From Bacteroidota bacterium (GTDB taxonomy: Bacteria; Bacteroidota; Bacteroidia; Bacteroidales; FEN-979), in contig JBAXKG010000001.1 in assembly GCA_037137455.1 (NCBI GenBank), forward strand, positions 64,418 through 128,417: a stretch of DNA of 64,000 nucleotides, given 5' to 3'. The translations under genes and the position numbers were made by a program. The notes under the pieces are model-generated. The model ran no database searches and was not told the origin of the DNA. It saw nothing but the letters and a program-made list of their open reading frames with translations. Positions 44,693 through 63,496 of this stretch are shown here, one piece after another (the first letter of the stretch is position 1; every line of letters starts with the position of its first letter).

Positions 44693-46036
44693 ATGATGCA
44701 AATTAAACCATTTTTTCTTACAATCCTGACAACTGTAGCCCTGAATGCCGGATTCCGGGCTATCGCGCAGGTTGAAATGACAGTCCCTGCTGTGCCAACT
44801 GCAGCAGGTGAAACCGGTGATTTCAACTCCTGGTTCATCCCGAAAACGCTCCGGATCGATTATCTCCTGACCGGAGATGCCAAATCTGAAACGGCATGTT
44901 TTGTTCAGATGAAGGAGGAACCTTTCTGGGGCGGGCCGCATAAAAATCTTACCGATCCCTTCGGATATGGCACCTACCGGTATTCTGCCTACGATTCTGC
45001 CACCAAAAAACTGATCTTTTCACGCGGTTTCAGTTCGCTTTTCCAGGAATGGAAAGGTACGGATGAGGCGAAAAAGATGAAGCGTGCCTACCCAATGACT
45101 GCAGTGATGCCTTTTCCGAAAGCAACCATTTTCTTTATCATTGAAAAAAGATCTTACGAAACCAACCAGTTTGAACTGCTCTTTGACCGGTTTATCAACC
45201 CAACCGATTATTTCATCAGCCGCGAAAGCATTCATACCTGTAAGTTTTTGAAAATCAAAGATTCGGGAGATCCCAAGGATCATGTTGATGTAGCATTTTT
45301 AGCCGAAGGGTACACCACCCTGGAGATGGATAAATTCATTGAAGATGCAAAACGGATCAGCAATTATTTTTTATCGGTTGAGCCTTATGCAAGCAATGCC
45401 GTCCGGTTTAATTTCTATGCAATCGAATCGCCTTCCGATGAATCGGGCGTGACCATCCCCGGAAAGGATATTTATGTGAATACCAACATCCACAGCAGTT
45501 TTTACACCTTCGACATGGATCGTTATCTTACCACTTCTGATACCAAATCGATGTACGACATTGCGGCCAACGTACCATATGATCTTATTTTCGTGTTGGT
45601 CAACAGCAAACGCTACGGCGGCGGCGGATTTTACAATCATTACGGGGAAAGTACGGTCGATCACCAGAATTCGAATATTGTGGCGATCCATGAATTTGGG
45701 CACGAGTTCGCCGGACTTGCCGATGAATACTATGCTTCGGAAATCACTTACTCCGATTATTACAATCTGAAATTCGAACCCTGGGAGCCCAATATCACAA
45801 CGAACATCAATTTTTCATCCAAGTGGAAAGGGATGATTAAATCCGGAACCCCTGTTCCAACTCCGCGTGAGGAAAAATATAAAGGTGTGACCGGGATGTT
45901 TGAAGGAGGAGGATATCTTTCAAAGGGGATTTTCAGTCCGGTGATGGATTGCAGGATGAAGAGCAACGAAGCCCCAAGGTTCTGTGCGGCCTGTCAGGAC
46001 GCCATCCGTAAAATGATTATGTTCTATTGTGAATAA
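44693..46036 (+). CDS. Secreted M64-family (IgA peptidase-like) zinc metallopeptidase
   Basis: Signal peptide and the HEFGHEFAGLADEY zinc motif. Confidence 0.8.
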   Translation: MMQIKPFFLTILTTVALNAGFRAIAQVEMTVPAVPTAAGETGDFNSWFIPKTLRIDYLLTGDAKSETACFVQMKEEPFWGGPHKNLTDPFGYGTYRYSAYDSATKKLIFSRGFSSLFQEWKGTDEAKKMKRAYPMTAVMPFPKATIFFIIEKRSYETNQFELLFDRFINPTDYFISRESIHTCKFLKIKDSGDPKDHVDVAFLAEGYTTLEMDKFIEDAKRISNYFLSVEPYASNAVRFNFYAIESPSDESGVTIPGKDIYVNTNIHSSFYTFDMDRYLTTSDTKSMYDIAANVPYDLIFVLVNSKRYGGGGFYNHYGESTVDHQNSNIVAIHEFGHEFAGLADEYYASEITYSDYYNLKFEPWEPNITTNINFSSKWKGMIKSGTPVPTPREEKYKGVTGMFEGGGYLSKGIFSPVMDCRMKSNEAPRFCAACQDAIRKMIMFYCE

Positions 46037-46838
46037 AGGTCTCATTTTTGATATCCGCCGCTTCTCGGTACATGATGGTCCGGGAATCAGGACGACTGTT
46101 TTTTTCAAGGGTTGTCCGCTGAGTTGCTGGTGGTGCCACAACCCGGAAAGCCGCGACATCAGGCCTGAACAATCAACTAAACATCTCGCCCTTGACGGCC
46201 GGACTTTCGAACGCGAAGAGACCACAGGGAGGTGGATGTCTGTTGCGGAGGTAATGCAGGAGATATTACAGGACCGGATTTTTTACGACGAATCGGGTGG
46301 GGGGGTAACCTTTTCGGGTGGTGAGCCCATGCTGCAGGTAGATTTTCTTTTCAAATTGCTAAAAGCCTGCAGGAATGAGGGCATACACACAACGCTTGAC
46401 ACATCCGGATTTTCATCGATTGCTTCGATTGAAAAAATATCAGATTGGGTCGATCTGTTTCTTTATGACCTGAAGATCATCAATGAGGAAAAACATCAAA
46501 AATACACCGGTGTTTCAAACAAAATGATAATTGAAAATCTTAGATTTCTTTACATCTCAGGAAAAAATGTAATTCTCAGATTTCCGGTTGTGCCCGGAAT
46601 AACCGACACGGCGGAAAATATCAACGACATGAAAGAAGTCACAACACATCTTCAAATTTTCAAATCTTCAAATCTTCAAATCAGCCTTCTCCCCTATCAT
46701 TCCATGGCCCGTGAAAAATATCACCGTTTTTGTAAGTCAAATCTTCTGGAAGGCATTCCCGAACTTAAATCAGCGGATCTTTTACCGTTGAAAGCCGAGT
46801 TTGAATCGATCGGGCTTTTGGTGACGATCGGAGGCTGA
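46029..46838 (+). CDS. Glycyl-radical enzyme activating protein (radical SAM), short PflA-like form
   Basis: FSVHDGPGIRTTVFFKGCPLSCWWCHNPES and GGEPMLQ motifs. I found no Cys-rich ferredoxin-like insert after the CxxxCxxC motif. GTG start overlaps the M64 gene by 8 nt. Confidence 0.85.
   Translation: MNKGLIFDIRRFSVHDGPGIRTTVFFKGCPLSCWWCHNPESRDIRPEQSTKHLALDGRTFEREETTGRWMSVAEVMQEILQDRIFYDESGGGVTFSGGEPMLQVDFLFKLLKACRNEGIHTTLDTSGFSSIASIEKISDWVDLFLYDLKIINEEKHQKYTGVSNKMIIENLRFLYISGKNVILRFPVVPGITDTAENINDMKEVTTHLQIFKSSNLQISLLPYHSMAREKYHRFCKSNLLEGIPELKSADLLPLKAEFESIGLLVTIGG
46650..46682. repeat. Four tandem octamers (cttcaaat tttcaaat cttcaaat cttcaaat) inside the activase ORF
   Basis: Direct reading. 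The segment encodes HLQIFKSSNLQI. Confidence 0.75.
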
Positions 46839-46846
46839 AATCAATT

Positions 46847-46871
46847 TTCCGCACCTACGGAGCGGAATTTT
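46847..46871 (+). terminator. Intrinsic terminator candidate after the activase gene
   Basis: Stem ttccgcacc / ggagcggaa (one A-A mismatch, 3-nt loop) followed by tttt. It lies 9 nt after the stop codon. Confidence 0.45.
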
Positions 46872-46901
46872 CTGGCTGCAATTTATTTGGCTACCAAAAT
46901 T

Positions 46902-46918
46902 GAGCTCCGATGGAGCTC
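46902..46918 (-). terminator. Hairpin (possible terminator for the convergent OMP gene)
   Basis: 7-bp stem gagctcc / ggagctc with a 3-nt loop, followed by AAUUUUG on the minus strand. Confidence 0.3.
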
Positions 46919-46955
46919 CAATAATTAACCAACTTGTCCCCTCGCTGATAATATG

Positions 46956-46978
46956 TTTTACCTTTTACCTTTTACCTT
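46956..46978. repeat. Tandem heptamer micro-repeat (ttttacc x3)
   Basis: Direct reading. It lies just downstream of the OMP gene stop on the minus strand. Confidence 0.75.
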
Positions 46979-46988
46979 GCAATATTCT

Positions 46989-47669
46989 TCATTTAACCGA
47001 TGACAGCCTGATTGCATAACCCACCGAAATACCATAAGACATGCTTCTTCCAACAATAAAGGCATCTTCGAGCACATCACTCAATCCGAAAAGGTAGGAT
47101 AATTTTAGAATTATATCGCCAGGGCCCATATTATAACTCAGACCGGCCTCAGTTGCCCAGGACAGATCCACCTCATTGAAGCGTGAAAATGGCATGAAAA
47201 ACCTGTAGTACGGACCTGAGAAAAGTGCGCCCCCATTAGGTGTGCCAACGGCAAAATCGGCCTGTGGCCCGGTGGCAATCAGCAACCCGAACTTACTCTG
47301 TTTGAAATGGAAGTGGTATCCTAACAATAATGATAATCCGACATAATGCTGCCTGGCAGGAGTTGTCCAAATCCAACCGGCTGAATCAATGAATGTTACC
47401 TTTGCCAATCCTTTGTTGGAGTAATGAAAACCTGTTGAAAGGAAAAAATTCATTCCCAAACCAATATCAGTAGTGACAGCAGCCTGGAATGATCCTACGT
47501 TGGGGTTTAAGGTAACGGAATCGAGAAGGTAATCATTTCGCTGAATACGTGCATATTCTGCAACAGCGGTATGGGTACCAAGAAATCCCACCTGGATACC
47601 GATTGAATTCTGTGCCTGCAGAATAGAAAAAAAGAAGCTTATAAACAGGAGTAAAATCGTTCTCTTCAT
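46989..47669 (-). CDS. Outer-membrane beta-barrel protein (porin/OmpA-like barrel family)
   Basis: Signal peptide, alternating hydrophobic strands, a terminal aromatic-rich strand, and Gly/Tyr/Phe-rich composition. Confidence 0.55.
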   Translation of the reverse strand: MKRTILLLFISFFFSILQAQNSIGIQVGFLGTHTAVAEYARIQRNDYLLDSVTLNPNVGSFQAAVTTDIGLGMNFFLSTGFHYSNKGLAKVTFIDSAGWIWTTPARQHYVGLSLLLGYHFHFKQSKFGLLIATGPQADFAVGTPNGGALFSGPYYRFFMPFSRFNEVDLSWATEAGLSYNMGPGDIILKLSYLFGLSDVLEDAFIVGRSMSYGISVGYAIRLSSVK

Positions 47670-47722
47670 GATAAATTTGTATAGAAATTATTAAAAAACA
47701 TTCAGGATTTGTATACAGGATG

Positions 47723-47730
47723 CAAAAATA
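47723..47730 (-). promoter_or_regulatory. -7 promoter box (TATTTTTG) for the OMP gene
   Basis: Matches TAnnTTTG on the minus strand, 53 nt before the ATG at 47669. Confidence 0.35.
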
Positions 47731-47815
47731 GCTAAGTTTCTGAAATCATGAGGTCAATAATCGCTTTCTGAGATTAAAAAATCTATTACTGGCTTCAGCT
47801 ATTTAATGTTTTCGA

Positions 47816-47823
47816 TATATTTG
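47816..47823 (+). promoter_or_regulatory. -7 promoter box (TATATTTG) only 4 nt upstream of the glycyl-radical enzyme ATG
   Basis: Matches TAnnTTTG. The ATG is at 47828. Confidence 0.35.
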
Positions 47824-47827
47824 CCGG

Positions 47828-50209
47828 ATGACAACAGACAGGATAAAATTTTTACGTGAAAAGAGCCTTAATGCCCTGAACTGCATCTCGGCAGAACGTG
47901 CTTTGCTCGTAACTGAATTTTACGCATCCGGGATTGAGAGGGAGGTTTCAGTTCCGGTGATGCGTGCCATGACTTTAGACCACATTCTTTCTCATAAAAA
48001 ACTTTGCTATAACGAGGGAGAACTTATCGTTGGGGAGCGAGGACCAGCGCCCAAATCCTGCCCTACTTTTCCTGAAATTTGTGTTCACTCATTGGAAGAT
48101 CTCGATATTCTTAATAAAAGGAAGAAGGTCTCCTTTAAGGTTGATGCTGCCACCCGTAAGATATACAAAGAAAAAATCATTCCATTCTGGAGCGGTAAAA
48201 GCAACCGCGACAGGGTGATGCGTTCGGTAAAGCCGGAATGGTTGGATGCATACAGAGCAGGTGTTTTTACTGAATTCCAGGAACAACGCGGCCCGGGGCA
48301 TACCGTGGCTGGTGATAAGATCTATCGAATAGGAATGATCGACCTAATTGATGAAATCAGGGAAACAAGATCAAGGATCGATTGGTTGAATGATCCGGGC
48401 AGCCTGGCGAAGGACGAGGAACTGAAAGCCATGGAAATTGCTGCAAACTCAGTGATTCGCTTTTCAAATCGATATTCCGGTTATCTGGAAGAATTGGCTG
48501 GTCAGATTTCAGAAACAAGTCACGCGTCACGCGCCGCGCGCCGCGAACTGGAAGAGTTAGCCCGCATTTGCCACCGGGTTCCTGCACATGCCCCTGAAAC
48601 CTTCCATGAGGCTCTTCAATACTACTGGTTCGTGCATCTTTGTGTGATTACCGAGCTCAATCCCTGGGATTCGTTCAATCCGGGACGACTCGACCAGCAC
48701 CTTTTCCCATTCTACCAGCGTGAGATCGAAGCAGGTACATTAACCAGGGAAAAAGCAGTTGAAATCCTTCAAAGCTTCTGGATAAAGTTCAACAACCATC
48801 CGGCGCCTCCGAAAGTTGGTGTCACAGCTCAGGAAAGTAATACCTACACCGATTTTTCGCTGATCAACCTTGGTGGCGTGAAGGCCGATGGTTCCAATGC
48901 CGTTAATGAAATGACCTTCATCCTTCTCGATGTGATCGAAGAGATGCGGCTGCTACAGCCCAGTTCGATGGTTCAGGTGAGTAAAAAAAATCCGGACAGA
49001 CTAATACAGCGCACATTGCAGATCACAAAAACCGGTTTCGGACAGCCTTCCTATTTTAATACCGATGCGATCGTGCAGGAACTGGTAAGGCAGGGAAAAG
49101 ATATCGTTGATGCTCGTAATGGAGGCGCCAGCGGCTGTGTAGAGTCTGGCGCATTCGGCACCGAGGCTTATATACTCAGCGGCTATTTCAATATTCCGAA
49201 AGTGCTTGAAATTACCCTTCACAACGGCTTTGATCCAGGAACCGGGAAGCAGATCGGACCAAAGACCGGAAAGGCTGAAAAATTCAAATCGTATGAAGAG
49301 GTGATGATAGCCTTTAACAGGCAACTTCGTCACTTCATCGATATCAAGATCAAGGGAAACAATATCATCGCGCAAATTTTTGCACAGTATCTTCCTGTTC
49401 CATTTCTTTCGCTGATTATCGATGATTGCATTGCCAACGGGCTTGACTACAACGCCGGTGGGGCAAGATACAACACCACCTACATCCAGGGTGTGGGGCT
49501 TGGAACCATCACCGATGCACTGACTTCAATCAAATATCACGTTTTTGAAAAGAAAACCATTTCCATGAAGGGGATGCTGAAGGCATTATCAGAAGATTTT
49601 AAGGATTTTGAAGAATTTCACGTTGACCTGGTCTATTCTACACCGAAATACGGCAACGATGAGGATTATGCCGATGATCGGGCCCGTGAAGTATTTGAAT
49701 CATTTTACAATTGTGTTAATGGCCGTCCGAATGCAACCAGGGGCACTCACCGTATTAACATGCTGCCAACGACCTGCCATATTTATTTTGGCAGTGTTAT
49801 CGGGGCGCTTCCCGATGGCAGGAAGGCAAAAAAACCACTTTCGGAAGGTATCTCCCCTGTGCAGGGCGCCGATCGCAAAGGACCTACCGCCGTATTGAAA
49901 TCGGCTGCAAAGATTGATCATATCCGCACTGGTGGCACTCTTCTCAACCAGAAATTTTCTCCTGATTTTTTTACAGGTGATGAAAGCATCCTCAAGCTCA
50001 CTGCACTTATCCGTTCTTACTTCAGGATGGATGGGCACCACATACAATTTAACGTTGTTTCGGCCAGTACCCTGCGCGATGCCCAGAAACATCCGGAAAG
50101 ATACCGCGACCTTATAGTTCGTGTGGCAGGTTACAGCGATTATTTCAATGATTTGGGTGAAGAGCTGCAGAATGAGATCATTTTTCGTACTGAACAGGGA
50201 TCATTTTAA
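47828..50209 (+). CDS. Glycyl radical enzyme, PFL2/glycerol-dehydratase family (hydroxyproline-dehydratase-sized; substrate not assignable)
   Basis: 793 aa. Contains the thiyl loop GGASGCVESGAFG (GCVE) and the C-terminal glycyl radical motif RVAGYSDYF. Confidence 0.85.
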   Translation: MTTDRIKFLREKSLNALNCISAERALLVTEFYASGIEREVSVPVMRAMTLDHILSHKKLCYNEGELIVGERGPAPKSCPTFPEICVHSLEDLDILNKRKKVSFKVDAATRKIYKEKIIPFWSGKSNRDRVMRSVKPEWLDAYRAGVFTEFQEQRGPGHTVAGDKIYRIGMIDLIDEIRETRSRIDWLNDPGSLAKDEELKAMEIAANSVIRFSNRYSGYLEELAGQISETSHASRAARRELEELARICHRVPAHAPETFHEALQYYWFVHLCVITELNPWDSFNPGRLDQHLFPFYQREIEAGTLTREKAVEILQSFWIKFNNHPAPPKVGVTAQESNTYTDFSLINLGGVKADGSNAVNEMTFILLDVIEEMRLLQPSSMVQVSKKNPDRLIQRTLQITKTGFGQPSYFNTDAIVQELVRQGKDIVDARNGGASGCVESGAFGTEAYILSGYFNIPKVLEITLHNGFDPGTGKQIGPKTGKAEKFKSYEEVMIAFNRQLRHFIDIKIKGNNIIAQIFAQYLPVPFLSLIIDDCIANGLDYNAGGARYNTTYIQGVGLGTITDALTSIKYHVFEKKTISMKGMLKALSEDFKDFEEFHVDLVYSTPKYGNDEDYADDRAREVFESFYNCVNGRPNATRGTHRINMLPTTCHIYFGSVIGALPDGRKAKKPLSEGISPVQGADRKGPTAVLKSAAKIDHIRTGGTLLNQKFSPDFFTGDESILKLTALIRSYFRMDGHHIQFNVVSASTLRDAQKHPERYRDLIVRVAGYSDYFNDLGEELQNEIIFRTEQGSF

Positions 50210-55424: not shown

Positions 55425-56240
55425 ATGAAAAGCAGCTTTAAAAAACTAAAAAAACTGTTTGGTGTTTCTGTTTCGGAACCGTTGACTTCAACCGAAACTT
55501 CTCCAAATCCAATTCTTGACTCAAATTCAGAAACCATCAAATCTTCAGTTCTGAAACCCACCATCGAATGGGTAGAAATTCCGGCAGGCACTTTTATGAT
55601 GGGAAGCTCCACTGGTGAAGCAGAGAGGAAAGCCAATGAAGTTCAACACGAGGTAACGTTGAGTTCATTTAAAATGAGCAAATACGAAATTACTTTTGAG
55701 CAGTACGATATTTTTTGCGAAGCCACCGGAAAAGAAAAACCGTTTGATGCAGGCTGGGGACGAAAAAATCGTCCGGTAATAAATGTCAGCTGGCATGATG
55801 CCAAAGCCTTTGCCGATTGGATGGGTTGCCGGTTACCCACAGAGGCAGAGTGGGAATATGCCTGCCGTGCCGGAACAACAACTCCATTCAATACAGGCGA
55901 AAACCTCACTACTTCGCAAGCTAATTATAATGGAAACTTCCCATACAACAATAATCCAAAAGGAGAATACAGGGAAAAAACAATTCAGGTGGGCAGCTTT
56001 GCTCCCAATGCCTGGAATTTATTCGATATGCATGGCAACATTTGGGAATGGTGCAACGACTGGTATGGCGATTATCCCACAACGGAGCAAACAAATCCAA
56101 AAGGCCCTGAATCAGGGTCGTTCCGGGTTTTTCGTGGTGGCGGCTGGCGCAACTACGCGCAGCTTTGCAGATCGGCCTTCCGTTTCAACTACTTTCCCGA
56201 CTACCGCCACTTCAACATAGGCTTGCGATTGGTTTCTTAG
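55425..56240 (+). CDS. Formylglycine-generating enzyme (SUMF1/FGE) family protein
   Basis: Motifs VNVSWHDAKAFADWMGCRLPTEAEWEYACRAG, GNIWEWCNDWY, RGGGW and GLRLV. Confidence 0.85.
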   Translation: MKSSFKKLKKLFGVSVSEPLTSTETSPNPILDSNSETIKSSVLKPTIEWVEIPAGTFMMGSSTGEAERKANEVQHEVTLSSFKMSKYEITFEQYDIFCEATGKEKPFDAGWGRKNRPVINVSWHDAKAFADWMGCRLPTEAEWEYACRAGTTTPFNTGENLTTSQANYNGNFPYNNNPKGEYREKTIQVGSFAPNAWNLFDMHGNIWEWCNDWYGDYPTTEQTNPKGPESGSFRVFRGGGWRNYAQLCRSAFRFNYFPDYRHFNIGLRLVS

Positions 56241-56502
56241 TTCGAAAGAGATGCGGATTTTTTCAGTTGATTTTGCTGAAATATGATAAAAATATGGGAT
56301 ATTTAAGAACTATGAAAAACATTAAAAAATGAAATCTACCGGCAAACCGAAACTATTTACAACCACCCGCTTAAGGTACGATGTGAATCGCACGGAACTA
56401 TTGATCGCCGTGTCAGCTATGGTATTTCCCGAACCAGTACAAGTGCTGAAATCACGACAGGAATTGCAATGAATCGAAGGCAAACTTTTACTGTTGGCTG
56501 CT

Positions 56503-56510
56503 TAGGTTTG
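56503..56510 (+). promoter_or_regulatory. -7 promoter box (TAGGTTTG) for the MFS/B12-sensor/kinase operon
   Basis: Matches TAnnTTTG, 15 nt before the ATG at 56526. Confidence 0.35.
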
Positions 56511-56525
56511 TAATCTTAAACCACC

Positions 56526-57896
56526 ATGGACCATCATAAAAAAAATATAAGGATCCTGTTGTTGCTGTTTGTAGGTGTACTCATGAGCGCACTCGACATT
56601 TCCATCGTCGGGCCTGCTATTCCTGCTATTGAAAAATCGATGCAGATCCACGGAGGCGACCTCAGCTGGATCTTTTCTATCTATGTGCTGTTTTACCTGT
56701 TCGGGATTCCCGTGATGACAAAATTGTCTGATATCCATGGCCGCCGGTTAATATACATTGCATCGGTTTCCATTTTTGGAATAGGATCAGGATTGGTTTC
56801 AATATCGCATGATATAACGCTTCTCCTTATCGGACGAGCTATCCAGGGATTCGGAGCAAGCGGTATTTTCCCCATCGCTACTGCTACCATCGGGGATGTG
56901 TTCCCTATTGAAAAGCGCGGAAGGGCCTTAGGAATCCTCGGTGCAGTATTCGGTATCTCATTTATTTTAGGGCCATTAATTGCAGGATCACTGCTGCTGT
57001 ACTTTAATTGGAGTGCTCTCTTCCTTATCAACCTGCCAGTTGCCGCTATTCTGATCATTTTTGCATTCAGGCTGCTGCCCGGAAAGACCCCAGGGGAAAA
57101 ACCGTTGATCGATTGGGCAGGAATCATAATGCTGGTAATTGTACTGTCATGTTTTACCCTGGGGTTGAACAATATTGATGTAGGGAATGTCGCGGCAAGC
57201 CTTGGATCATGGTCAGTGCTGCCTTTCCTTTTGACAGTGATGCTATTGACGCCGTTGCTGATAATTTATGAACGGACGCAAGAAAATTCCATTCTCAACA
57301 TTAAACTATTTAAGTCCCCCCAGATCCGTTTGGTCGGGGTTATCTCCTTTGGACTTGGATTGTTCCAGTCAAGCGTTGTTTTCCTTCCGAAATTGGCCGT
57401 AGAACTCTTCAATGTTGAACCTTCAAAGGCCAGCTTTATGTTACTTCCTCTGGTGATATCAACAGCCATCATTCCTCCGGTAAGTGGCCGGCTTCTCGAC
57501 AAGGTCGGTTCACGGGTAATCGTTTTCTCCGGACTTATCATCGCAGTTGTGGCTCTAATTCTTTTCAGCATGTTGTCGAAAGATATCACCCTCTTTTATA
57601 TCGCTGAGGTTGGTCTCGGTTTCGGGCTGGCAATACGCGCATCTCTCAAATACATAGTGCTCAACGAAAGTGAAGTCAAAGACCGTGCGGCTACCCTGGG
57701 GATGCTGATTATTTTTATATCGGTGGGGCAACTTACCGGAGCCGCGCTGATAGGAGTAATTGCAGCCGGCTCGCCGAATGGACCATCCGGTTTCGGATAC
57801 GCTTTTCTCGTCTTGACAGCTCTCACATCATTTCTGGTGTTGCTATCAATATTCTTAAAGAGAAGAAAGGATGAAATACCGGAAGTTAATGGTTGA
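56526..57896 (+). CDS. MFS transporter (about 14 TM segments, drug:H+ antiporter-like)
   Basis: 456 aa. Contains the MFS motif GRRLIYIASVSIFGIGS and multiple TM helices. Confidence 0.8.
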   Translation: MDHHKKNIRILLLLFVGVLMSALDISIVGPAIPAIEKSMQIHGGDLSWIFSIYVLFYLFGIPVMTKLSDIHGRRLIYIASVSIFGIGSGLVSISHDITLLLIGRAIQGFGASGIFPIATATIGDVFPIEKRGRALGILGAVFGISFILGPLIAGSLLLYFNWSALFLINLPVAAILIIFAFRLLPGKTPGEKPLIDWAGIIMLVIVLSCFTLGLNNIDVGNVAASLGSWSVLPFLLTVMLLTPLLIIYERTQENSILNIKLFKSPQIRLVGVISFGLGLFQSSVVFLPKLAVELFNVEPSKASFMLLPLVISTAIIPPVSGRLLDKVGSRVIVFSGLIIAVVALILFSMLSKDITLFYIAEVGLGFGLAIRASLKYIVLNESEVKDRAATLGMLIIFISVGQLTGAALIGVIAAGSPNGPSGFGYAFLVLTALTSFLVLLSIFLKRRKDEIPEVNG

Positions 57897-57940
57897 ATAA
57901 ACTGTATATTTGTTTGAAAATCAAACATAATTTCGCATCC

Positions 57941-58414
57941 ATGAATTTGAAAGTTTTAATCCTGATCTGTTTTCTTATTGCCAGCTGGTCAGGGTTGGCA
58001 CAAACAACGCGGATTACAAATTTTGATGATCTGATGGCAAATCTCAATGCCGGGGAACAAATACGGGTGGTTATTCATTATGCCCTTTGTAAATGGTCTC
58101 CTGAGCAGGCAGAGCAATCTCCTGTTCCGGATGCAATAACAGGGATGGATATCGACACTTATGAATATTTTGCTCCGGGTGCAGTGCATAACAAATTTGC
58201 TTTTGTTGTATTTGCAAATTCGAAACTTATTATGAACCCTGTCGGAAAAGGGTTCGTTTACAATTACGGAAAAGTCAGAATTAATGCCGACAATACCGTG
58301 CAGGTTACGGCTAAATATATTCATCCAAAGAATTTCAATGTGAAAATGAATGAATCTTTCAGCTGTAAATTGAATGATGGAACAAATAATGAAGGAATTA
58401 ACCTGTTTAAATAA
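57941..58414 (+). CDS. Small secreted protein of unknown function
   Basis: The start was set to MNLKVLILICFLIASWSGLAQ (signal peptide). I recognise no motif. Confidence 0.45.
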   Translation: MNLKVLILICFLIASWSGLAQTTRITNFDDLMANLNAGEQIRVVIHYALCKWSPEQAEQSPVPDAITGMDIDTYEYFAPGAVHNKFAFVVFANSKLIMNPVGKGFVYNYGKVRINADNTVQVTAKYIHPKNFNVKMNESFSCKLNDGTNNEGINLFK

Positions 58415-58422
58415 TCTGAATA

Positions 58423-59481
58423 ATGGAAATAAATGATTTTTTAAGTAAGAAAATATTGGGGTTTAAATCTACTCTTCCGGCAATGATCCTTGCTGACCAT
58501 TTTAGCATGCGACCAGATATGGCAAGGAATTATAGTGAACACCAGAAAGAAAAATTCCAGAAAGACGTTGCCTGGATCCTTTCATTCCTTGCCCAGTCGG
58601 TATGGGCAGGACAACCTGTTCTTTTTGAAGAGTTTGCATCGTGGCTTAAAACTTTCCTCACCTCTGTAAAGGTTCCAATGAAGGATGTTGCTGAAAGTCT
58701 TGAATTGATAAAAAAAAGGATTAACCAAGAATGTACTGCAGAGGAGAACGAACTAATTAACCCACTCCTTGACAAGGCAATCAGACTGATTTTGACTGAA
58801 GGTCAAAAATTATCTCTTCCGGCCTTGGATAACCATCTCACCACACTGGCACAGAATTACCTTGAAAGCCTGCTCACAGGAAACCGGAGTAATGCTTTAT
58901 CAATAATTATGAACGAGGTAGCTGCCGGCATTCCCGTGAGGGATATGTACCTTCAGGTATTTCAACCGGTTCAATATGAAATTGGTCGTTTGTGGCAAAC
59001 CAACCGGATAAGTGTGGCACAGGAGCATTACTGCACCGGAGCCACTCAATTGGTTATGTCGCAGCTTTACCCCTATTTGTTTACAGGCGAAAAGAAAGAC
59101 CGTAAAATGGTAACCACATGCGTACCAGGTGAATTGCATGAAATGGGGGCTCGCATGGTAACCGATTTTTTTGAGATGCATGGATGGGACACATATTATC
59201 TTGGTGCAAATATGCCTATTGAAGGAGTAATAAACTTTCTTATTGATATAAAACCCCGGTTCCTGGCAATCTCGGCAACTATGACTTTTCATGTCAGCGC
59301 CGTTGAAGAGATGATTTCCCGAATCAGGTCTGCCACCGGCATCCCATCAGATTTAAAGATCATGGTAGGAGGTTATCCATTCAAAGTAGCCGAAGGGCTG
59401 TGGAAACGTGTTGGAGCAGATGGATATGCCCTTGACGCTTTGGAGGCAGTCGATTTGGCAGATAAATTATTAGCAGCCTGA
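58423..59481 (+). CDS. Cobalamin-binding protein with a CarH-type photoreceptor module (four-helix bundle plus Rossmann B12-binding domain) and an unknown helical N-terminal domain
   Basis: Wx9EH motif in GRLWQTNRISVAQEHYCT. Lower-ligand motif ExHxxG in VPGELHEMGARMV. B12-binding fold LAISATMTFHV...IMVGGYPF. I see no MerR-type HTH. Confidence 0.7.
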   Translation: MEINDFLSKKILGFKSTLPAMILADHFSMRPDMARNYSEHQKEKFQKDVAWILSFLAQSVWAGQPVLFEEFASWLKTFLTSVKVPMKDVAESLELIKKRINQECTAEENELINPLLDKAIRLILTEGQKLSLPALDNHLTTLAQNYLESLLTGNRSNALSIIMNEVAAGIPVRDMYLQVFQPVQYEIGRLWQTNRISVAQEHYCTGATQLVMSQLYPYLFTGEKKDRKMVTTCVPGELHEMGARMVTDFFEMHGWDTYYLGANMPIEGVINFLIDIKPRFLAISATMTFHVSAVEEMISRIRSATGIPSDLKIMVGGYPFKVAEGLWKRVGADGYALDALEAVDLADKLLAA

Positions 59482-59486
59482 TCGTT

Positions 59487-60680
59487 ATGGAAATATTAGA
59501 AAAGCGATTCTCCGTTTTGTGTGACCTGGAAGGCCGCGTTGTTCAGGTACTTGATGATGAGTACCAGGTGCTCTCCTCTTCGATATTAGGGAATATGATC
59601 TTTTCGAGCGTGGTTCCAAGTGATCTGGATAAAATCATCAATTTTTATCTCGAACTAAAGGAAAAAGGAACGGCAATTGGCTGGCAGATAAATGTTTCCA
59701 CACCGAAAGGGGCGGAAACATTCTCTTTTTTTGGAGGAATCTTTGATAACCGTATTGGTATCGCAGCTGCCACCACAAAAAACGGAGCCCAGTTATTGTT
59801 TGCCGAACTTACAAGAATCAACAATGAACAAACCAATATTATCAGGGCTGCAGCAAAAGTGAACGCGAAACTCCAATACGATCACTTGGAGCCTGGTGTA
59901 TCATATTACGAAGAGCTGAGTCGTTTGAACAACGAACTGGTTAACATTCAGCGCGAACTGTCAAAAAAGAACCGGGAACTTGATGAATTAAATAAACTTA
60001 AAAATCAGTTTCTTGGGATAGCCGCGCATGATCTTCGCAATCCGATTGGAGTTATACTTGGCTATTCGGAACTCATGCTCGATAAACATGGCCCTCCCAA
60101 TCCTGAAGAGCAAACCGAACTGATTCAGCGAATTTACAAAACCGGTACATTTATGCTTGGCTTGGTAAATGACCTTTTGGACATTGCCAACATTGAATCG
60201 GGGCAGCTGGAGCTTAACTTATCCGAACAGGATATTGGTCAGGTTATCAGCGAAGTTATTCAGATGAATGAAATCTTTGCCCGGGCCAAGTCGATGGAAA
60301 TTGTATTCGACAGACCATCGATACCGGTCATGGCCTTGATAGACCGTCCAAAAATCGAACAGGTAATTACAAATTTGTTGTCAAATGCTATTAAATACTC
60401 ATTCCCCCAAACAAGGATTATCATCCGTTTGGAGATTGAAGGCCTATCAGCCAGAATATCGGTTCAGGATCAGGGCCAGGGAATCAGGGAAGAGGAGTTG
60501 AATAAGCTATTCAAGCAATTTCAAAAAACTTCCACACGGTCCACCGGCGGTGAGAAGAGTACCGGGTTGGGACTGTTAATTGTGAAAAAAATTGTGGAGG
60601 CGCACCAGGGTAATTTCGGTGTAAAAAGCAAATTTGGAGAAGGGTCTCTATTTTTCTTCACTATACCGGTTATATCCTGA
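59487..60680 (+). CDS. Soluble sensor histidine kinase (PAS-like N-terminus, coiled coil, HisKA, HATPase_c)
   Basis: H-box FLGIAAHDLRNPI, N-box LLSNAIKYS, G1 DQGQGI, G2 GLGLLIVKK. No TM segment. It starts 5 nt after the B12-protein stop. Confidence 0.9.
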   Translation: MEILEKRFSVLCDLEGRVVQVLDDEYQVLSSSILGNMIFSSVVPSDLDKIINFYLELKEKGTAIGWQINVSTPKGAETFSFFGGIFDNRIGIAAATTKNGAQLLFAELTRINNEQTNIIRAAAKVNAKLQYDHLEPGVSYYEELSRLNNELVNIQRELSKKNRELDELNKLKNQFLGIAAHDLRNPIGVILGYSELMLDKHGPPNPEEQTELIQRIYKTGTFMLGLVNDLLDIANIESGQLELNLSEQDIGQVISEVIQMNEIFARAKSMEIVFDRPSIPVMALIDRPKIEQVITNLLSNAIKYSFPQTRIIIRLEIEGLSARISVQDQGQGIREEELNKLFKQFQKTSTRSTGGEKSTGLGLLIVKKIVEAHQGNFGVKSKFGEGSLFFFTIPVIS

Positions 60681-60712
60681 TATGCTGAAGTTGACCGGGA
60701 AATTTGCAACGC

Positions 60713-63496
60713 TTACTTCAGCCTTATAATCTTTGCAGTTTCAACACGGTCGCCTATCATCAAACGGATGATGTATATTCCGGCTTGTTGGTTTTCGATT
60801 GAAAAATCCATTGTCCGGGTGGCCTTTACCTCCTTATTAATTACGATTTCTCCCCGAAGCCCGGTGATGAAAATAGTCATTGGCTCCTGATCGACCTCAG
60901 GGTTCAATTCCAGGGTAAACCTGCCATTTGTGGGATTGGGATAGACTTTGAACAACCCTGCCTGCGACTGCACGTTTGGAATTTCTTCATTGTTGATATT
61001 TTCCGCCTTTATACCCGGGGCGGGAGCCCCGGTGCAAAAGCTGCCAAATGGCGTAATATAAGCCCAAAGCCATCCGTCCGAATCAACCCTGGTACCCGGG
61101 AGCAGCAAAATCTTCTGTCCGGCAATGAAGGTGGCGCCCCCGCCTGGTTGTATAAGAAACGTGGTACCGTTTCCGGCCACGCTGACTACCTGAACGGCAT
61201 CATAGCATTTTATTTCGCCATCACCCAGAATTATATTGTTCACGTTGTTTCGTACCGGTATTACGTGAATTTCAAGGATGGGTGAAGCCTGACCTGTTCC
61301 GCAAAGATTGGAGCCTGAAACGCTTAAGTTTCCTGATAAGGCGGTTTCGGAAAATGTAACGGTAATACTGTTGCTATTTCCGCCTGCTGTGAGGGTTACC
61401 CCGGGAGGCAGGATCCAGTTATAAATAGAGGCATTAGAAATGGGATTCACCCAATAGGTAACACCTGCCTGGCCCTGAAACACGGCTTCGGGGCCGTTCA
61501 CGTCACCAGCCGGGGCAGGCATCGGACTGGGGTTCAATGTTGTACTTATAAACACAGGCCGTTCGGTAACTCTGAAAGTAACTTTATTATTTTGAATTTC
61601 GAGGATCGACTGACATCCTTCAGTGATGCCCGATTGAGGGCGAATCAACCGCGCCGCCGAGGAGGTTCCTATATCAAGGGTGAAATTTTCGATGATTTTA
61701 TTTGATGAACTGGTACACCAAACGGCGTAAACCGCTTTTTCAGCACATTTTGAAAAAAATTTGTAAACATTTACTGAATTATTCCCTGAAGCGATTTCGT
61801 TTTCAAAACAGAGTCCTTTCAGCTGATTTTTCATGGTAGAAACGTAAAACCATGATTTTTTGGGTTGATGACCGTTCCATATTTCATTTGTCAAGCCCGA
61901 ACTGTTGTATTTGTTAGGATTGGCGGCATTCGCATCGCGGAGCATGAATACAAAAGCCTTATCTATTCCTGCTGCAATTGCCTCCAGATACGATCGCATT
62001 ATCCACTGTCCCTGCACCTCGTAAATGTCATTAGTATCAATTTTAACCGCTGCCTGTTCGCTTTCAGGATTCGTATCATATCCAAATTCAGAGAGCCAGA
62101 TTTCTTTGCCGGGTAAAAAGGCATCGCGGTAGTCCACTATCACTTTCAACTTTTGTTTAAGGTTGTTGTCCTCAGGACTAATTCCATGGCTACCATTCCC
62201 TGAATAGTGATGAAAATTCAGAACATCGGCAGGGAAACCTGTTGACCGGTTAAAGTCACACCATAATTTCATGCATCTCAGGTACTCCAGATTTAAGCTT
62301 GCAAGTCCACCCATCACCATTTTTATTGATGAATCAGCAGCTTTCATTCCCTTTCCGGTTCCCAATGAATTTTCATGGCCATCATAATCAGCGCTGCACA
62401 TCGTTGAAAATTCATCGGGTGTAAAGTATCCCTTACGTGTGCACCACCATTTGTCAGGTTCATTCCAGTTTTCAAGATACCCGGCAAACCCGCTTCCGCT
62501 GATATTTGGCTGGTCGGGCCTGAGTTTCAATAAAGAGTGAGCTACCCCGGTCGAACCATACCTGGCTGCAAACTGAAACAAATAATCTGAATGCTCAATA
62601 AAGGATACAGGATCGAGGGGGTTTTCATTCTGACTAATCGGTTTATATTGCGTTTGAGAATCATCAAATCCATGGATGTAAGGAGCACATCCCTGAAGAT
62701 CAGGACTAACAATCAAACTGTCATTTTTTAGATGCCGATAAAAATCATCAAAATTGAAACTCCAGCCAGGTCCGCTTGCCCAGCTTGGATTCCATGCATA
62801 TTGATTGTGAGGAAAACCATGATAGGTCGTATCAAGATTTCCTTCATCCCAACCCCAGTCGTGATATTCGCGCACATTTCCGGCACAATTTAGTTTGTCA
62901 ACCGGATCATCAATGAAACCATTTACACCCATGAAATGATCAAAAAAAGGTTTAGGATGCTGAACAGGCAAGGGAGGTGGATTAGCTGTTCCAATTGGCC
63001 AACCGTAGACAACAATCTCGGCTACCCTGGTGGAGGGGCTGGCATATGAAAACATCAGGAATCTTGTTGTGTCCTGCAATGGGACTTCACGCCATGTATT
63101 GTAAGTATTTAAAAGCAAACCGGCTTTTTTTTCCCATAATGAAGGGTCGCCTGTATAAATAAAAATACTGTCAATGTCAGAGGCATCAAACAACCACAAT
63201 GACAATAGATTGTATGACTTTCCGAGGTCAACGACTATCATTGCAGGATAATATATATCAGCATTTATCCATCCGGGTGAAAATACGGTTAATGGTGTGC
63301 CTCCCTGGCCGGTTGAGGGATCATTAGCTAAATCCTGCTCATCCACGAGCAACCCTGGTTCACCTTTTGTTGAAAAGTTGTAGAGCATGCTGCTGGTCAG
63401 GTTTAATTTGGTTTGCCCGAAAATGTCAGCGGGGAAATAAATCAAAATGGCCAATAGTGAAATGATACAGAGGGTGGTGATTATTCTCTTAGACAT
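60713..63496 (-). CDS. Secreted clan GH-A glycosidase with an N-terminal discoidin-like CBM, Ig/PKD-like modules and a T9SS C-terminal sorting domain
   Basis: Signal peptide. Contains LENWNEPDKWW (NEP acid/base-type motif), IWLSEFGYD (nucleophile-type motif) and a C-terminal FKVYPNPTNGRFTLEL...AGIYIIRL sorting domain. Confidence 0.6.
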   Translation of the reverse strand: MSKRIITTLCIISLLAILIYFPADIFGQTKLNLTSSMLYNFSTKGEPGLLVDEQDLANDPSTGQGGTPLTVFSPGWINADIYYPAMIVVDLGKSYNLLSLWLFDASDIDSIFIYTGDPSLWEKKAGLLLNTYNTWREVPLQDTTRFLMFSYASPSTRVAEIVVYGWPIGTANPPPLPVQHPKPFFDHFMGVNGFIDDPVDKLNCAGNVREYHDWGWDEGNLDTTYHGFPHNQYAWNPSWASGPGWSFNFDDFYRHLKNDSLIVSPDLQGCAPYIHGFDDSQTQYKPISQNENPLDPVSFIEHSDYLFQFAARYGSTGVAHSLLKLRPDQPNISGSGFAGYLENWNEPDKWWCTRKGYFTPDEFSTMCSADYDGHENSLGTGKGMKAADSSIKMVMGGLASLNLEYLRCMKLWCDFNRSTGFPADVLNFHHYSGNGSHGISPEDNNLKQKLKVIVDYRDAFLPGKEIWLSEFGYDTNPESEQAAVKIDTNDIYEVQGQWIMRSYLEAIAAGIDKAFVFMLRDANAANPNKYNSSGLTNEIWNGHQPKKSWFYVSTMKNQLKGLCFENEIASGNNSVNVYKFFSKCAEKAVYAVWCTSSSNKIIENFTLDIGTSSAARLIRPQSGITEGCQSILEIQNNKVTFRVTERPVFISTTLNPSPMPAPAGDVNGPEAVFQGQAGVTYWVNPISNASIYNWILPPGVTLTAGGNSNSITVTFSETALSGNLSVSGSNLCGTGQASPILEIHVIPVRNNVNNIILGDGEIKCYDAVQVVSVAGNGTTFLIQPGGGATFIAGQKILLLPGTRVDSDGWLWAYITPFGSFCTGAPAPGIKAENINNEEIPNVQSQAGLFKVYPNPTNGRFTLELNPEVDQEPMTIFITGLRGEIVINKEVKATRTMDFSIENQQAGIYIIRLMIGDRVETAKIIRLK

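What the first reader, a model, noticed from the sequence alone, without database searches (positions are those of the whole stretch)
56503..60680. CarH-type AdoCbl photoreceptor module with no DNA-binding domain, coupled to a soluble histidine kinase in a four-gene operon
ORF 58423..59481 carries both signatures that define CarH/LitR-type light-sensing B12 modules. The first is the Wx9EH motif of the four-helix-bundle cap (LWQTNRISVAQEH: W, nine residues, then EH). The second is the ExHxxG lower-axial-His motif of the Rossmann B12 domain (GELHEMG). The usual MerR-type HTH is missing and is replaced by an all-helical domain of about 125-170 aa that I cannot place. Its stop is 5 nt from the start of a TM-less histidine kinase (59487..60680) that has a PAS-like N-terminus. 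Upstream on the same strand, with gaps of 44 and 8 nt, lie an MFS transporter and a small secreted protein. A single TAGGTTTG -7 box at 56503 precedes the whole set. No response regulator is encoded nearby. The arrangement suggests light or corrinoid state is relayed to phosphotransfer through protein-protein contact rather than DNA binding. As far as I know this coupling has not been characterised experimentally.
Basis: partly seen in the sequence, partly recalled or inferred. Interest (0 to 1): 0.7.

Follow-up and report, generated by a model that had tools for sequence, protein, structure and literature searches.

The report
Photocobilin light sensor with partner kinase
The B12 protein belongs to the recently described photocobilin family (a B12 light-sensing module fused to a bilin-binding globin), and here it sits next to a dedicated soluble histidine kinase, a pairing kept across many bacterial phyla but never tested experimentally.

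Summary
The sequence observation is correct.

It matches Pfam Phycobilisome (E 2e-10), and the best PDB matches are the photocobilins 8J2W/8J2X/8J2Y. The two biliverdin-contact residues of SasPcob are kept (D48, W74). The protein is therefore a photocobilin with the globin placed before the B12 module, an arrangement already recognised computationally in 2022 and 2024.

The kinase adjacency is real. 67 of 80 genome loci from more than ten phyla have a histidine kinase immediately downstream, and 55 of these carry the same unannotated PAS-like N-terminal domain. In 4 of 4 informative cases, distant carriers of that domain sit next to a B12 protein. One natural fusion also exists.

The conserved core is two genes, not four. 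The MFS gene accompanies it in 3 of 80 loci and the VirK-like gene in 13. A second -7-like box lies in the MFS/VirK gap.

No response regulator is encoded in the 64-kb window. In three close relatives the operon continues into REC-KaiA-like, KaiB and KaiC genes.

Verdict: a new member of a known kind. Its signalling to a kinase has not been characterised experimentally.

The parts
56503..56510 (+). TAGGTTTG, a candidate Bacteroidota -7 promoter element 16 nt upstream of the MFS ATG
   Evidence: Sequence. The pattern TAnnTTTG occurs at chance frequency in the window (58 vs 60 expected), so this is a weak positional lead only.
56526..57896 (+). MFS transporter, DHA2/EmrB-like efflux type. A lineage-specific neighbour, probably not part of the conserved module.
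   Evidence: Pfam MFS_1 E 9.5e-62. NCBIfam efflux_EmrB E 5e-49, below cutoff. Found upstream of the sensor in only 3 of 80 related loci (L003, L005, L013).
57905..57912 (+). TATATTTG, a second candidate -7 element inside the 44-nt MFS/VirK gap, 29 nt upstream of the ATG at 57941
   Evidence: Suggests the three downstream genes may have their own promoter. Not tested.
57941..58414 (+). VirK-like small secreted protein (157 aa) with an N-terminal signal peptide. A recurrent accessory gene of the module in Bacteroidota and Ignavibacteriota-type genomes.
   Evidence: Pfam VirK PF06903, 27.6 bits, cutoff 23.7. Hydrophobic N-terminus MNLKVLILICFLIASWSGLAQ. Homologue next to the sensor in 13 of 80 loci. 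No solved relative.
58423..59481 (+). Photocobilin-type photoreceptor candidate (352 aa): photoglobin, linker, four-helix cap, Rossmann B12 domain
   Evidence: Pfam Phycobilisome + B12-binding_2 + B12-binding. Best PDB matches are photocobilins 8J2X/8J2W (E 1.3e-27) and 8J2Y. AF2 model pLDDT 89.7, pTM 0.84. Foldseek matches to photocobilin and CarH-family B12 domains at 2.1-2.9 A.
58423..58797 (+). Photoglobin (phycobilisome-like globin) domain, aa 1-125. Carries D48 (58564-58566) and W74 (58642-58644), which align with the biliverdin-contact residues Asp270 and Trp296 of SasPcob. F45 occupies the phycocyanin Cys position.
   Evidence: Pfam PF00502 aa 36-121, E 2.2e-10. Alignment to the SasPcob globin domain. 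Residue roles from PMC10979010. Conservation: D48 72/75, W74 74/75; position 45 is C32/Y16/F14/S10. Helices 2-124 in the model.
58843..59067 (+). B12-binding_2 four-helix-bundle cap, aa 141-215, with the W-x9-EH motif (W191 at 58993-58995; E201-H202 at 59023-59028)
   Evidence: Pfam PF02607 E 1.4e-13. In-register alignment with SasPcob and 8JBS; the corrinoid protein 4JGI has F, L and I at these positions. 75/75 conserved.
59104..59475 (+). Rossmann B12-binding domain, aa 228-351, with G-E-L-H239-E-M-G (59128-59148), S284-A-T and G316-G317
   Evidence: Pfam PF02310 E 8.6e-21. H239 75/75 conserved. Aligns with the lower axial His108 of SasPcob.
59487..60680 (+). Soluble class I histidine kinase (397 aa): PAS-like domain, signalling helix, HisKA, HATPase_c
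   Evidence: Pfam HisKA E 5e-17 and HATPase_c E 3e-25. No TM segment. H181 (60027-60029) 50/50 conserved, with N, G1 and G2 boxes conserved. AF2 model. Foldseek full-length alignments to PAS/LOV kinases 4GCZ and 4I5S.
59487..59777 (+). Kinase N-terminal PAS-like domain (aa 1-97) with near-invariant Cys12 (59520-59522) and Gly16. Proposed docking or input domain for the photocobilin.
   Evidence: No Pfam model matches. Predicted beta-beta-alpha-alpha-beta-beta-beta topology, pLDDT about 85. 349 representative clusters, almost always N-terminal in proteins of about 400 aa. Recognisable in 55 of 80 downstream kinases. 4 of 4 distant carriers lie next to a B12 protein. C12 48/50.
59907..59981 (+). 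Conserved signalling-helix motif YEELSRLNNELVNIQRELSKKNREL, linking the input domain to the DHp domain
   Evidence: Invariant N148, N149, Q155, R156 and E157 in A3. In the natural fusion L079 the same motif directly follows the photocobilin part.

Best explanation
ORF 58423-59481 encodes a stand-alone photocobilin. Its B12 module would hold adenosylcobalamin under the W191/E201-H202 cap, with H239 as the lower axial ligand. Its N-terminal photoglobin would hold a linear tetrapyrrole, probably non-covalently because position 45 is Phe, through D48 and W74 against the edge of the corrin. By analogy with SasPcob, green light absorbed by AdoCbl, or red light relayed from the bilin, breaks the Co-C bond. 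The cap helix carrying E201-H202 then shifts and the dark-state head-to-tail dimer falls apart. The translationally coupled downstream gene encodes a soluble, catalytically competent histidine kinase. Its unannotated PAS-like N-terminal domain is the proposed receiver of this change. Binding or release of the photocobilin would be passed through the conserved signalling helix to the DHp/CA core and alter autophosphorylation at H181. The phosphoryl group would then go to a response regulator encoded outside this window. Shown here: domain identities, motif mapping and conservation, kinase competence, bidirectional conserved adjacency, and a natural fusion. Taken from the literature: the AdoCbl and biliverdin photochemistry, and trans-regulation of an enzyme through protein-protein contacts, in the other domain order. 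Inferred: cofactor binding by this protein, physical contact with the kinase's N-terminal domain, the direction of the light effect, and the output.
For: Three-domain architecture. Closest solved relatives are photocobilins (E 1e-27), with both the B12 module and the globin aligned. W191, E201, H202 and H239 are 75/75 conserved, D48 72/75 and W74 74/75. The model is confident, with pTM 0.84, implying a defined packing of globin against B12. Photochemistry, light-induced monomerisation and regulation of a diguanylate cyclase in trans by stand-alone photocobilins are shown in PMC10979010. A kinase lies immediately downstream in 67/80 loci across Bacteroidota, Chloroflexota, Acidobacteriota, Verrucomicrobiota, Ignavibacteriota, Planctomycetota, Desulfobacterota, Firmicutes and archaea, and 55 of these carry the same N-terminal domain. 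In the reverse test, 4 of 4 distant N-domain carriers follow a B12 protein. In the natural fusion L079, the photocobilin replaces the N-domain directly ahead of the shared signalling-helix motif. The 5-nt gap between the two genes fits co-translation. The kinase H-box and ATP-binding boxes are intact.
Against: No biochemical data exist for any photocobilin with the globin-first order, or for any photocobilin-kinase pair. Fold similarity cannot by itself separate light sensors from methyltransferase corrinoid proteins: MtmC 3EZX matches at 2.6 A. The window encodes a glycyl-radical enzyme and its activase, which hints at an anaerobic lifestyle. Canonical oxygen-dependent heme oxygenase may then be absent, and no bilin-synthesis gene recurs near the module. 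Some relatives come from MAGs whose isolate names (SulCav) suggest a sulfidic cave, presumably dark, though the sampling site was not checked. No complex prediction could be run. 13 of 80 loci lack a clear adjacent kinase. No response regulator is present in the window, so the output is unknown.
Confidence: 0.62

Rival explanations
1. The protein senses corrinoid availability or redox state rather than light. The form of cobalamin bound (AdoCbl, OH-Cbl or none), or its oxidation state, would set the kinase activity in the dark, and the photoglobin would serve a structural or other ligand-binding role.
For: The organism looks anaerobic (PFL-like glycyl radical enzyme plus activase). Relatives occur in sediment, soil and apparently cave MAGs. 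In AbDPcob, biliverdin occupancy is only about 20%, and binding of AdoCbl alone already changes enzyme activity (PMC10979010). AerR, a B12-domain regulator without a DNA-binding domain, is a detectable relative (7TE2, E 1e-4).
Against: The W-x9-EH adenosyl-pocket motif, which PMC10979010 describes as shared with light-dependent CarH-like photoreceptors, is 100% conserved. The bilin-contact residues D48 and W74 are more than 96% conserved, which is hard to explain for a purely structural globin. Any protein-bound AdoCbl is intrinsically photolabile, so the two roles are not mutually exclusive.
Confidence: 0.18
2. The sensor and the kinase are co-transcribed but act independently. The kinase's PAS-like domain would bind its own small ligand, and the photocobilin would regulate a different partner.
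For: The PAS-like domain has a near-invariant Cys12 and Trp66, which could line a ligand pocket. SasPcob is predicted to interact with STAS/SpoIIE partners rather than kinases (PMC10979010). 13 of 80 loci have no adjacent kinase.
Against: Co-occurrence is bidirectional and specific to this N-terminal domain family. A natural fusion puts the photocobilin in place of that domain. Gaps of 5 nt or overlaps are typical of protein pairs made in fixed stoichiometry.
Confidence: 0.12
3. The protein is a methyl-carrying corrinoid protein of a methyltransferase system (MtaC/MtbC/MtgC-like), as several automated source annotations say.
For: The highest NCBIfam partial hit is MtgC (E 3.6e-19). JGI names many homologues 'methanogenic corrinoid protein MtbC1'. 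The fold matches MtmC 3EZX.
Against: All corrinoid-protein models score far below their cutoffs (69 vs 370 bits, 58 vs 350). No methyltransferase gene lies in the window neighbourhood or recurs in 80 loci. The corrinoid protein 4JGI lacks W/E/H at the aligned cap positions. The protein carries a fused globin and is linked to a kinase.
Confidence: 0.02

Closest known systems
Photocobilins SasPcob and AbDPcob (PDB 8J2W/8J2X/8J2Y; Zhang et al. 2024, PMC10979010)
   Same: Same three building blocks: four-helix cap with W-x9-EH, Rossmann domain with E/DxH, and a phycobilisome-like globin. They are the best sequence matches in the PDB (E 1e-27). The biliverdin-contact Asp and Trp are conserved. No Cys is present for covalent bilin attachment. 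Like SasPcob, it is a stand-alone protein with no DNA-binding domain, and is expected to act through protein-protein contacts.
   Different: The domain order is permuted, with the globin first and B12 last. This group was noted only from predicted structures in that paper. Identity is about 30%. The native partner here is a histidine kinase, whereas the characterised cases are a fused diguanylate cyclase (AbDPcob) or predicted STAS/SpoIIE partners (SasPcob). Nothing about this protein has been measured.
Photoglobin family (Schneider et al. 2022, PMC8717448)
   Same: The N-terminal domain has the photoglobin hallmarks. These are a conserved Asp on helix 3 (D48), a hydrophobic residue 31 positions later (L79), fusion to B12-binding_2 and B12-binding in either order, and operon association with two-component systems.
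   Different: That paper reports the association with signalling genes in general terms, and says none of the loci has been studied experimentally. I did not find a description of the specific two-gene module with a dedicated PAS-like kinase N-domain, its breadth (67/80 loci), or the link to Kai genes in the sections I read.
CarH/LitR AdoCbl-dependent transcriptional repressors (PDB 5C8A-5C8F, 8JBS)
   Same: W-x9-EH cap and lower-axial His motifs in register. The B12 module superimposes at about 3 A.
   Different: There is no MerR-type HTH. The NCBIfam CarH score is 57 bits against a cutoff of 400. The residue after the cap Trp is Gln (74/75), not the His that, from my own knowledge of T. thermophilus CarH (His132), forms the bis-His light state. 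The output is a kinase, not DNA binding.
AerR/PpaA B12-binding antirepressors (PDB 7TE2)
   Same: A B12-binding module without a DNA-binding domain that signals through protein-protein contact with a partner regulator.
   Different: Only a distant match (E 1e-4). AerR has no globin, and its partner is the transcription factor CrtJ/PpsR rather than a kinase (my own knowledge).
Stand-alone sensor plus adjacent kinase pairs such as H-NOX with HnoK/HahK (my own knowledge; an analogy of logic only)
   Same: A small cofactor-binding sensor protein is encoded next to a soluble kinase and controls its autophosphorylation through direct contact.
   Different: Unrelated folds and cofactors. No homology is implied.

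Membership tests
Photocobilin (photoglobin + B12 photoreceptor) | B12-binding_2 four-helix cap followed by a Rossmann B12-binding domain | tested here: met
   Pfam PF02607 E 1.4e-13 and PF02310 E 8.6e-21. Model and Foldseek matches at 2.1-2.9 A.
Photocobilin (photoglobin + B12 photoreceptor) | W-x9-EH adenosyl-pocket motif and E/DxH lower-axial His | tested here: met
   W191, E201, H202 and H239 align in register with SasPcob and are 75/75 conserved.
Photocobilin (photoglobin + B12 photoreceptor) | Fused phycobilisome-like globin (photoglobin) domain | tested here: met
   Pfam PF00502 E 2.2e-10, 41 bits vs cutoff 22.2. Aligns to the SasPcob and AbPcob globin domains. All-helical residues 2-124 in the model.
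Photocobilin (photoglobin + B12 photoreceptor) | Bilin-contact residues (SasPcob Asp270 and Trp296) | tested here: met
   D48 and W74, from the alignment with a +6 offset between chain and paper numbering. 72/75 and 74/75 conserved.
Photocobilin (photoglobin + B12 photoreceptor) | Domain order of the characterised members (B12 N-terminal, globin C-terminal) | tested here: not met
   The globin is N-terminal here. PMC10979010 and PMC8717448 both include the reverse order in the family, on computational grounds.
Photocobilin (photoglobin + B12 photoreceptor) | Binds AdoCbl and biliverdin, with green and red light driving Co-C cleavage | not testable with these tools
   Needs purified protein and UV-vis spectroscopy.
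CarH/LitR light-dependent repressors | N-terminal MerR-type helix-turn-helix DNA-binding domain | tested here: not met
   No HTH family in the Pfam scan. The N-terminus is a globin.
CarH/LitR light-dependent repressors | NCBIfam CarH equivalog score | tested here: not met
   NF052513 scores 57.4 bits against a cutoff of 400.
Methyltransferase corrinoid proteins (MtaC/MtbC/MtgC) | Curated family score, and a partner methyltransferase gene nearby | tested here: not met
   Best score is 69 bits against a cutoff of 370. No methyltransferase in the window neighbourhood or recurring across 80 loci.
Class I (HisKA) sensor histidine kinase | H-box His, and N, G1 and G2 ATP-binding boxes | tested here: met
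   Pfam HisKA and HATPase_c. H181 50/50, N296/N300, D328/G330/G332 and G360/G362 conserved. Core superimposes on HK853 at 2.3-2.7 A.
Class I (HisKA) sensor histidine kinase | Cognate response regulator encoded alongside | tested here: not met
   No REC domain in the 64-kb window. 22 of 80 related loci do have a REC protein right after the kinase.
PAS domain (kinase residues 1-97) | Five-stranded antiparallel sheet with flanking helices, recognised by a PAS-clan profile | tested here: inconclusive
   No Pfam PAS model matches, even at E 1. The predicted topology is PAS-like at pLDDT about 85. Full-length Foldseek alignments to PAS/LOV kinases cover it, but with high overall rmsd.

The most novel reading that the evidence does not exclude
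The unannotated PAS-like N-terminal domain of the kinase, with its near-invariant Cys12, may be a dedicated photocobilin-docking domain. Sensor and kinase would then form a split, two-chromophore (B12 plus bilin) light-sensing kinase found in non-phototrophic bacteria and archaea of more than ten phyla. In some Bacteroidota and Verrucomicrobiota this pair may be the missing light-input kinase of a Kai timer. In L001, L004 and L017 the operon runs sensor, kinase, REC-KaiA-like protein, KaiB, KaiC. If so, the window's copy would be an orphaned version of a clock-input module.
Probability: 0.2. Interest if true: 0.8.

Novelty: new member of a known kind. Interest (0 to 1): 0.45.

Why it matters
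Photocobilins were characterised only in 2024. That paper states that the function of stand-alone photocobilins is unclear, and it tested them only against a non-native diguanylate cyclase. This locus and its relatives point to a native partner that is conserved across phyla. The partner is a small soluble kinase whose N-terminal domain occurs essentially only next to these sensors. That gives a simple two-protein system in which to test how B12/bilin photochemistry is converted into phosphotransfer. It could also serve as a candidate green/red-responsive two-component switch for optogenetics. The finding also corrects widespread mis-annotation of these proteins as 'MtbC1' or 'MerR light-induced regulator'. 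The Kai linkage in relatives, if real, would connect a defined photoreceptor to KaiC-based timing in non-photosynthetic bacteria.

Tried and rejected
1. Sigma-70 promoter and intrinsic-terminator scans over 56200-60900 gave counts equal to shuffled controls. They are uninformative, and this promoter type is not the one expected for Bacteroidota.

2. TAnnTTTG as a statistical signal was rejected: 58 matches against 60 expected.

3. The Foldseek search with the whole sensor model aligned only the B12 module, because the domain order is permuted. It could not separate photoreceptors from MtmC.

4. The Foldseek search with the whole kinase model was dominated by the catalytic core, so the PAS assignment stays inconclusive.

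5. A Pfam scan of kinase residues 1-158 found no family.

6. A PDB sequence search for the VirK-like protein found nothing meaningful.

7. The look-up of P0249 was uninformative, because the contig starts at the kinase gene.

8. A search for recurrent bilin-synthesis or B12-transport genes in the neighbourhood, by clustering 707 neighbour proteins, found only kinase/REC, VirK-like, KaiB, KaiC and MFS families, plus an antisense artefact.

9. I had recalled that KaiA3 was reported in Bacteroidota. This was wrong. [quoted passage not shown]

10. The methyltransferase corrinoid-protein reading was considered and rejected.

11. A complex prediction was not possible.

Full report
**1. Checking the observation**

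The four same-strand ORFs are present as described:
- an MFS transporter at 56526-57896;
- a small protein whose likely start is the ATG at 57941 (the mechanical ORF starts at a TTG at 57893);
- a 352-aa B12 protein at 58423-59481;
- a 397-aa histidine kinase at 59487-60680.

The junction sequences give gaps of 44, 8 and 5 nt. The motifs are exact. W191 is followed by nine residues and then E201-H202, and G236-E-L-H239-E-M-G242 is present. Pfam finds B12-binding_2 (aa 143-215) and B12-binding (aa 228-343), and no helix-turn-helix.

The kinase has HisKA and HATPase_c domains. It has no hydrophobic segment that could span a membrane.

TAGGTTTG is at 56503. The pattern TAnnTTTG occurs 58 times in the window against 60 expected by chance. 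A second copy, TATATTTG at 57905, lies inside the 44-nt gap, 29 nt before the ATG of the small protein. So the 'single promoter' statement does not hold as written.

**2. Identity of the B12 protein**

The best matches among solved structures are 8J2X/8J2W (E 1.3e-27) and 8J2Y (E 5.6e-22). Two separate stretches align. The B12 module of the query aligns to their N-terminal part. Query residues 24-100 align to their C-terminal part. These entries are the photocobilins SasPcob and AbPcob (PMC10979010).

In that work, AdoCbl sits under a Trp61/Glu71-His72 cap with His108 as the lower ligand. Biliverdin sits in a C-terminal globin, held mainly by Asp270 and Trp296 next to the corrin edge. From the alignment, allowing for a 6-residue offset between chain and paper numbering, these residues correspond to W191, E201-H202, H239, D48 and W74 here.

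Across 75 full-length homologues from 80 genome loci, W191, E201, H202 and H239 are invariant. D48 is present in 72 and W74 in 74. Position 45 is equivalent to the bilin-attaching Cys of phycocyanin discussed in PMC8717448. It is Cys in 32 homologues and Phe in this protein, so any bilin here would be bound non-covalently, as in SasPcob.

The AlphaFold2 model is confident, with pLDDT 89.7 and pTM 0.84. Its B12 module superimposes on photocobilins and CarH-family domains at 2.1-2.9 A. It superimposes equally well on the methylamine corrinoid protein 3EZX. The fold alone therefore does not discriminate between these families, and the motifs are what decide it. The CarH-family domain 8JBS has W-x9-EH in register with the query. 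The corrinoid protein 4JGI has Phe, Leu and Ile at those positions.

NCBIfam models for MtgC, MtbC and CarH all score far below their cutoffs. The protein is therefore a photocobilin with the globin placed first. Both Schneider et al. 2022 and Zhang et al. 2024 mention this order, on computational grounds only. Public sources label its homologues inconsistently, as 'cobalamin-dependent protein', 'MtbC1' or 'MerR light-induced regulator'.

**3. Coupling to the kinase**

A pattern scan of one genome per species found at least 553 genomes that encode a relative. The 80 best loci span Bacteroidota, Chloroflexota, Acidobacteriota, Verrucomicrobiota, Ignavibacteriota, Planctomycetota, Desulfobacterota, Paenibacillus, and Asgard and Thermoplasmatales archaea.

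- In 67 of the 80 loci, the gene immediately downstream on the same strand is a histidine kinase.
- In 55 of these, the first 150 residues of the window kinase are recognisably conserved.
- Four more loci have weaker matches in that position.

Searched on its own against 1.84 billion representative proteins, that N-terminal region finds only 349 clusters. Nearly all have the match at the N-terminus of proteins of about 400 aa.

I also ran the reverse test on distant carriers of this domain. They share 28-46% identity and are 535-849 aa long, some with extra PAS, REC or Hpt domains. All four with informative contigs lie directly downstream of a 313-361-aa B12-binding protein.

One locus, L079, encodes an apparent fusion. 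The photocobilin is followed by a linker and then by the same signalling-helix motif (LSRxNNELxNxQRE) that follows the N-terminal domain in the window kinase. A PAS domain and the catalytic core come after that.

No Pfam model matches the N-terminal domain. It is predicted with pLDDT of about 85 as beta-beta-alpha-alpha-beta-beta-beta, followed by a long helix into the DHp. The whole model aligns over its length with PAS/LOV kinases such as YF1. Cys12 is present in 48 of 50 orthologues and Gly16 in all 50. The phospho-acceptor His181 and the N, G1 and G2 boxes are conserved, so the kinase should be active.

**4. The other genes and the surroundings**

The small protein has a signal peptide and matches Pfam VirK just above its cutoff. 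A homologue lies next to the sensor in 13 of 80 loci, in Bacteroidota and in Ignavibacteriota-type genomes. Its function is unknown, and no solved relative exists.

The MFS transporter is of the DHA2 efflux type. It accompanies the module in only three close relatives (L003, L005, L013). The four-gene arrangement is therefore real synteny within a narrow clade. The conserved functional unit is the sensor plus the kinase.

Downstream of the kinase, 32 nt away, is a convergent gene for a PKD-domain protein with a type IX secretion tail. Upstream genes encode glycoside hydrolases, a peptidase, an FGE-sulfatase-like protein, and a PFL-like glycyl-radical enzyme with its activase. The last pair hints at an anaerobic lifestyle.

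No REC domain is detectable anywhere in the 64-kb window. By contrast, 22 of the 80 related loci have a REC protein right after the kinase.

**5. Most likely mechanism**

I combine the anatomy above with the published behaviour of photocobilins. That behaviour includes green-light and bilin-relayed red-light cleavage of the Co-C bond, a shift of the Glu-His helix, and dimer-to-monomer conversion. It also includes concentration-dependent regulation of an enzyme in trans.

The best-supported model is a split photoreceptor kinase. The holo-photocobilin would bind, or release, the PAS-like domain of the kinase depending on light. The signalling helix would transmit this to the catalytic core, and the phosphoryl group would pass to a regulator encoded elsewhere.

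Domain identity, motif conservation, kinase competence and the genomic linkage are shown here. Cofactor binding, physical contact, the sign of regulation and the output are inferred. I put this model at about 0.6.

The main rival is that the pair reports corrinoid or redox state rather than light. This is plausible for an anaerobe with uncertain access to biliverdin. It is hard to reconcile with the near-total conservation of both the adenosyl-pocket residues and the bilin-contact residues. Independent action of the two proteins, and a methyl-transfer role, are less likely. The reasons are set out under the rival explanations.

**6. Comparison with what is known, and novelty**

Schneider et al. 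2022 defined the photoglobin family. They reported its fusion to B12 domains in either order and its operon association with two-component systems, and stated that none of the loci had been studied experimentally.

Zhang et al. 2024 characterised two photocobilins of the other domain order. They showed trans-regulation through protein-protein contacts, while noting that the role of stand-alone photocobilins is unclear.

Full-text searches for photocobilin, photoglobin plus histidine kinase, and B12-binding domain plus histidine kinase plus CarH found no experimental study of a photocobilin-kinase pair. The library does not cover all journals.

The locus is therefore a new member of a known kind. 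This analysis adds four things:
- the specificity and breadth of the two-gene module;
- recognition of the kinase's N-terminal domain as its signature;
- the fusion evidence from L079;
- the Kai lead described next.

**7. Seen in passing**

In three close Bacteroidota relatives (L001, L004, L017), three further genes follow the kinase:
- A 265-aa REC protein. Its C-terminal half matches Pfam KaiA weakly (E 0.003, below the cutoff). It also matches four KaiA C-domain structures over nearly their full length (E 0.002-0.01).
- A clear KaiB (E 3e-25).
- A clear KaiC (E 1e-207).

Two Verrucomicrobiota loci also carry KaiC and KaiB downstream.

Köbler et al. 2024 describe such REC-KaiA chimeras (KaiA3) and state that their cognate kinase is unidentified. 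Their list of non-cyanobacterial carriers does not include Bacteroidota.

The window itself has no Kai genes.

Noticed in passing
L001:10270-12889, L004:2217-4836, L017:10254-12812 (also L002:4270-4551, L053:10383-12550, L076:4282-6380): In close Bacteroidota relatives the sensor-kinase pair is followed by a REC protein with a weak KaiA C-domain match, then clear KaiB and KaiC genes, then a hybrid kinase. Two Verrucomicrobiota loci have KaiC and KaiB downstream. The window has no Kai genes. This may be a light-input route to a Kai timer in non-phototrophs. The KaiA3 paper says the cognate kinase is unknown, and its list of non-cyanobacterial carriers does not include Bacteroidota.
   Followed up: partly
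L079:7995-10463: An 822-aa ORF fuses a photocobilin to the shared signalling-helix motif, a PAS domain and a kinase core (Verrucomicrobiota MAG). The locus contains no N bases. Whether this is a true fusion or an assembly or frameshift artefact was not checked further.
   Followed up: partly
window 59520-59522 (kinase Cys12): A Cys in the first beta-strand of the kinase's PAS-like domain is conserved in 48 of 50 orthologues across phyla. Its role is unknown (structural, redox, or ligand or bilin contact).
   Followed up: no
window 58555-58557 (sensor residue 45) and homologues in L001-L080: The position equivalent to the bilin-attaching Cys of phycocyanin is Cys in 32 of 75 homologues, and Tyr, Phe or Ser in the rest (Phe in the window). 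The family may therefore split into covalent and non-covalent bilin binders.
   Followed up: partly
window 46029-50209: A radical-SAM activase (46029-46838) and a PFL-like glycyl-radical enzyme (47828-50209) lie about 6 kb upstream. This suggests an anaerobic lifestyle and raises the question of how biliverdin would be made.
   Followed up: no
window 57941-58414 and 13 related loci: A signal-peptide-bearing VirK-family protein of unknown function recurs immediately upstream of the cytoplasmic sensor in Bacteroidota and Ignavibacteriota-type genomes, and once downstream of the kinase (L049). Why a secreted protein is linked to a cytoplasmic photoreceptor is unexplained.
   Followed up: partly
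L062:8891-9493, L067:9017-9511: In Rufibacter and Adhaeribacter (cultured Hymenobacteraceae), the gene after the sensor encodes only a 164-200-aa protein with a weak match to the window kinase. It may be a stand-alone copy of the N-terminal domain without a catalytic core.
   Followed up: no
window-wide (e.g. 1964, 11983, 14243, 30706, 34630, 38165, 47816, 52643, 56503, 63528): TAnnTTTG is not enriched overall, but many copies sit 5-35 nt upstream of the start codons of long ORFs. This fits the known Bacteroidota -7 promoter element and very short leaders.
   Followed up: no
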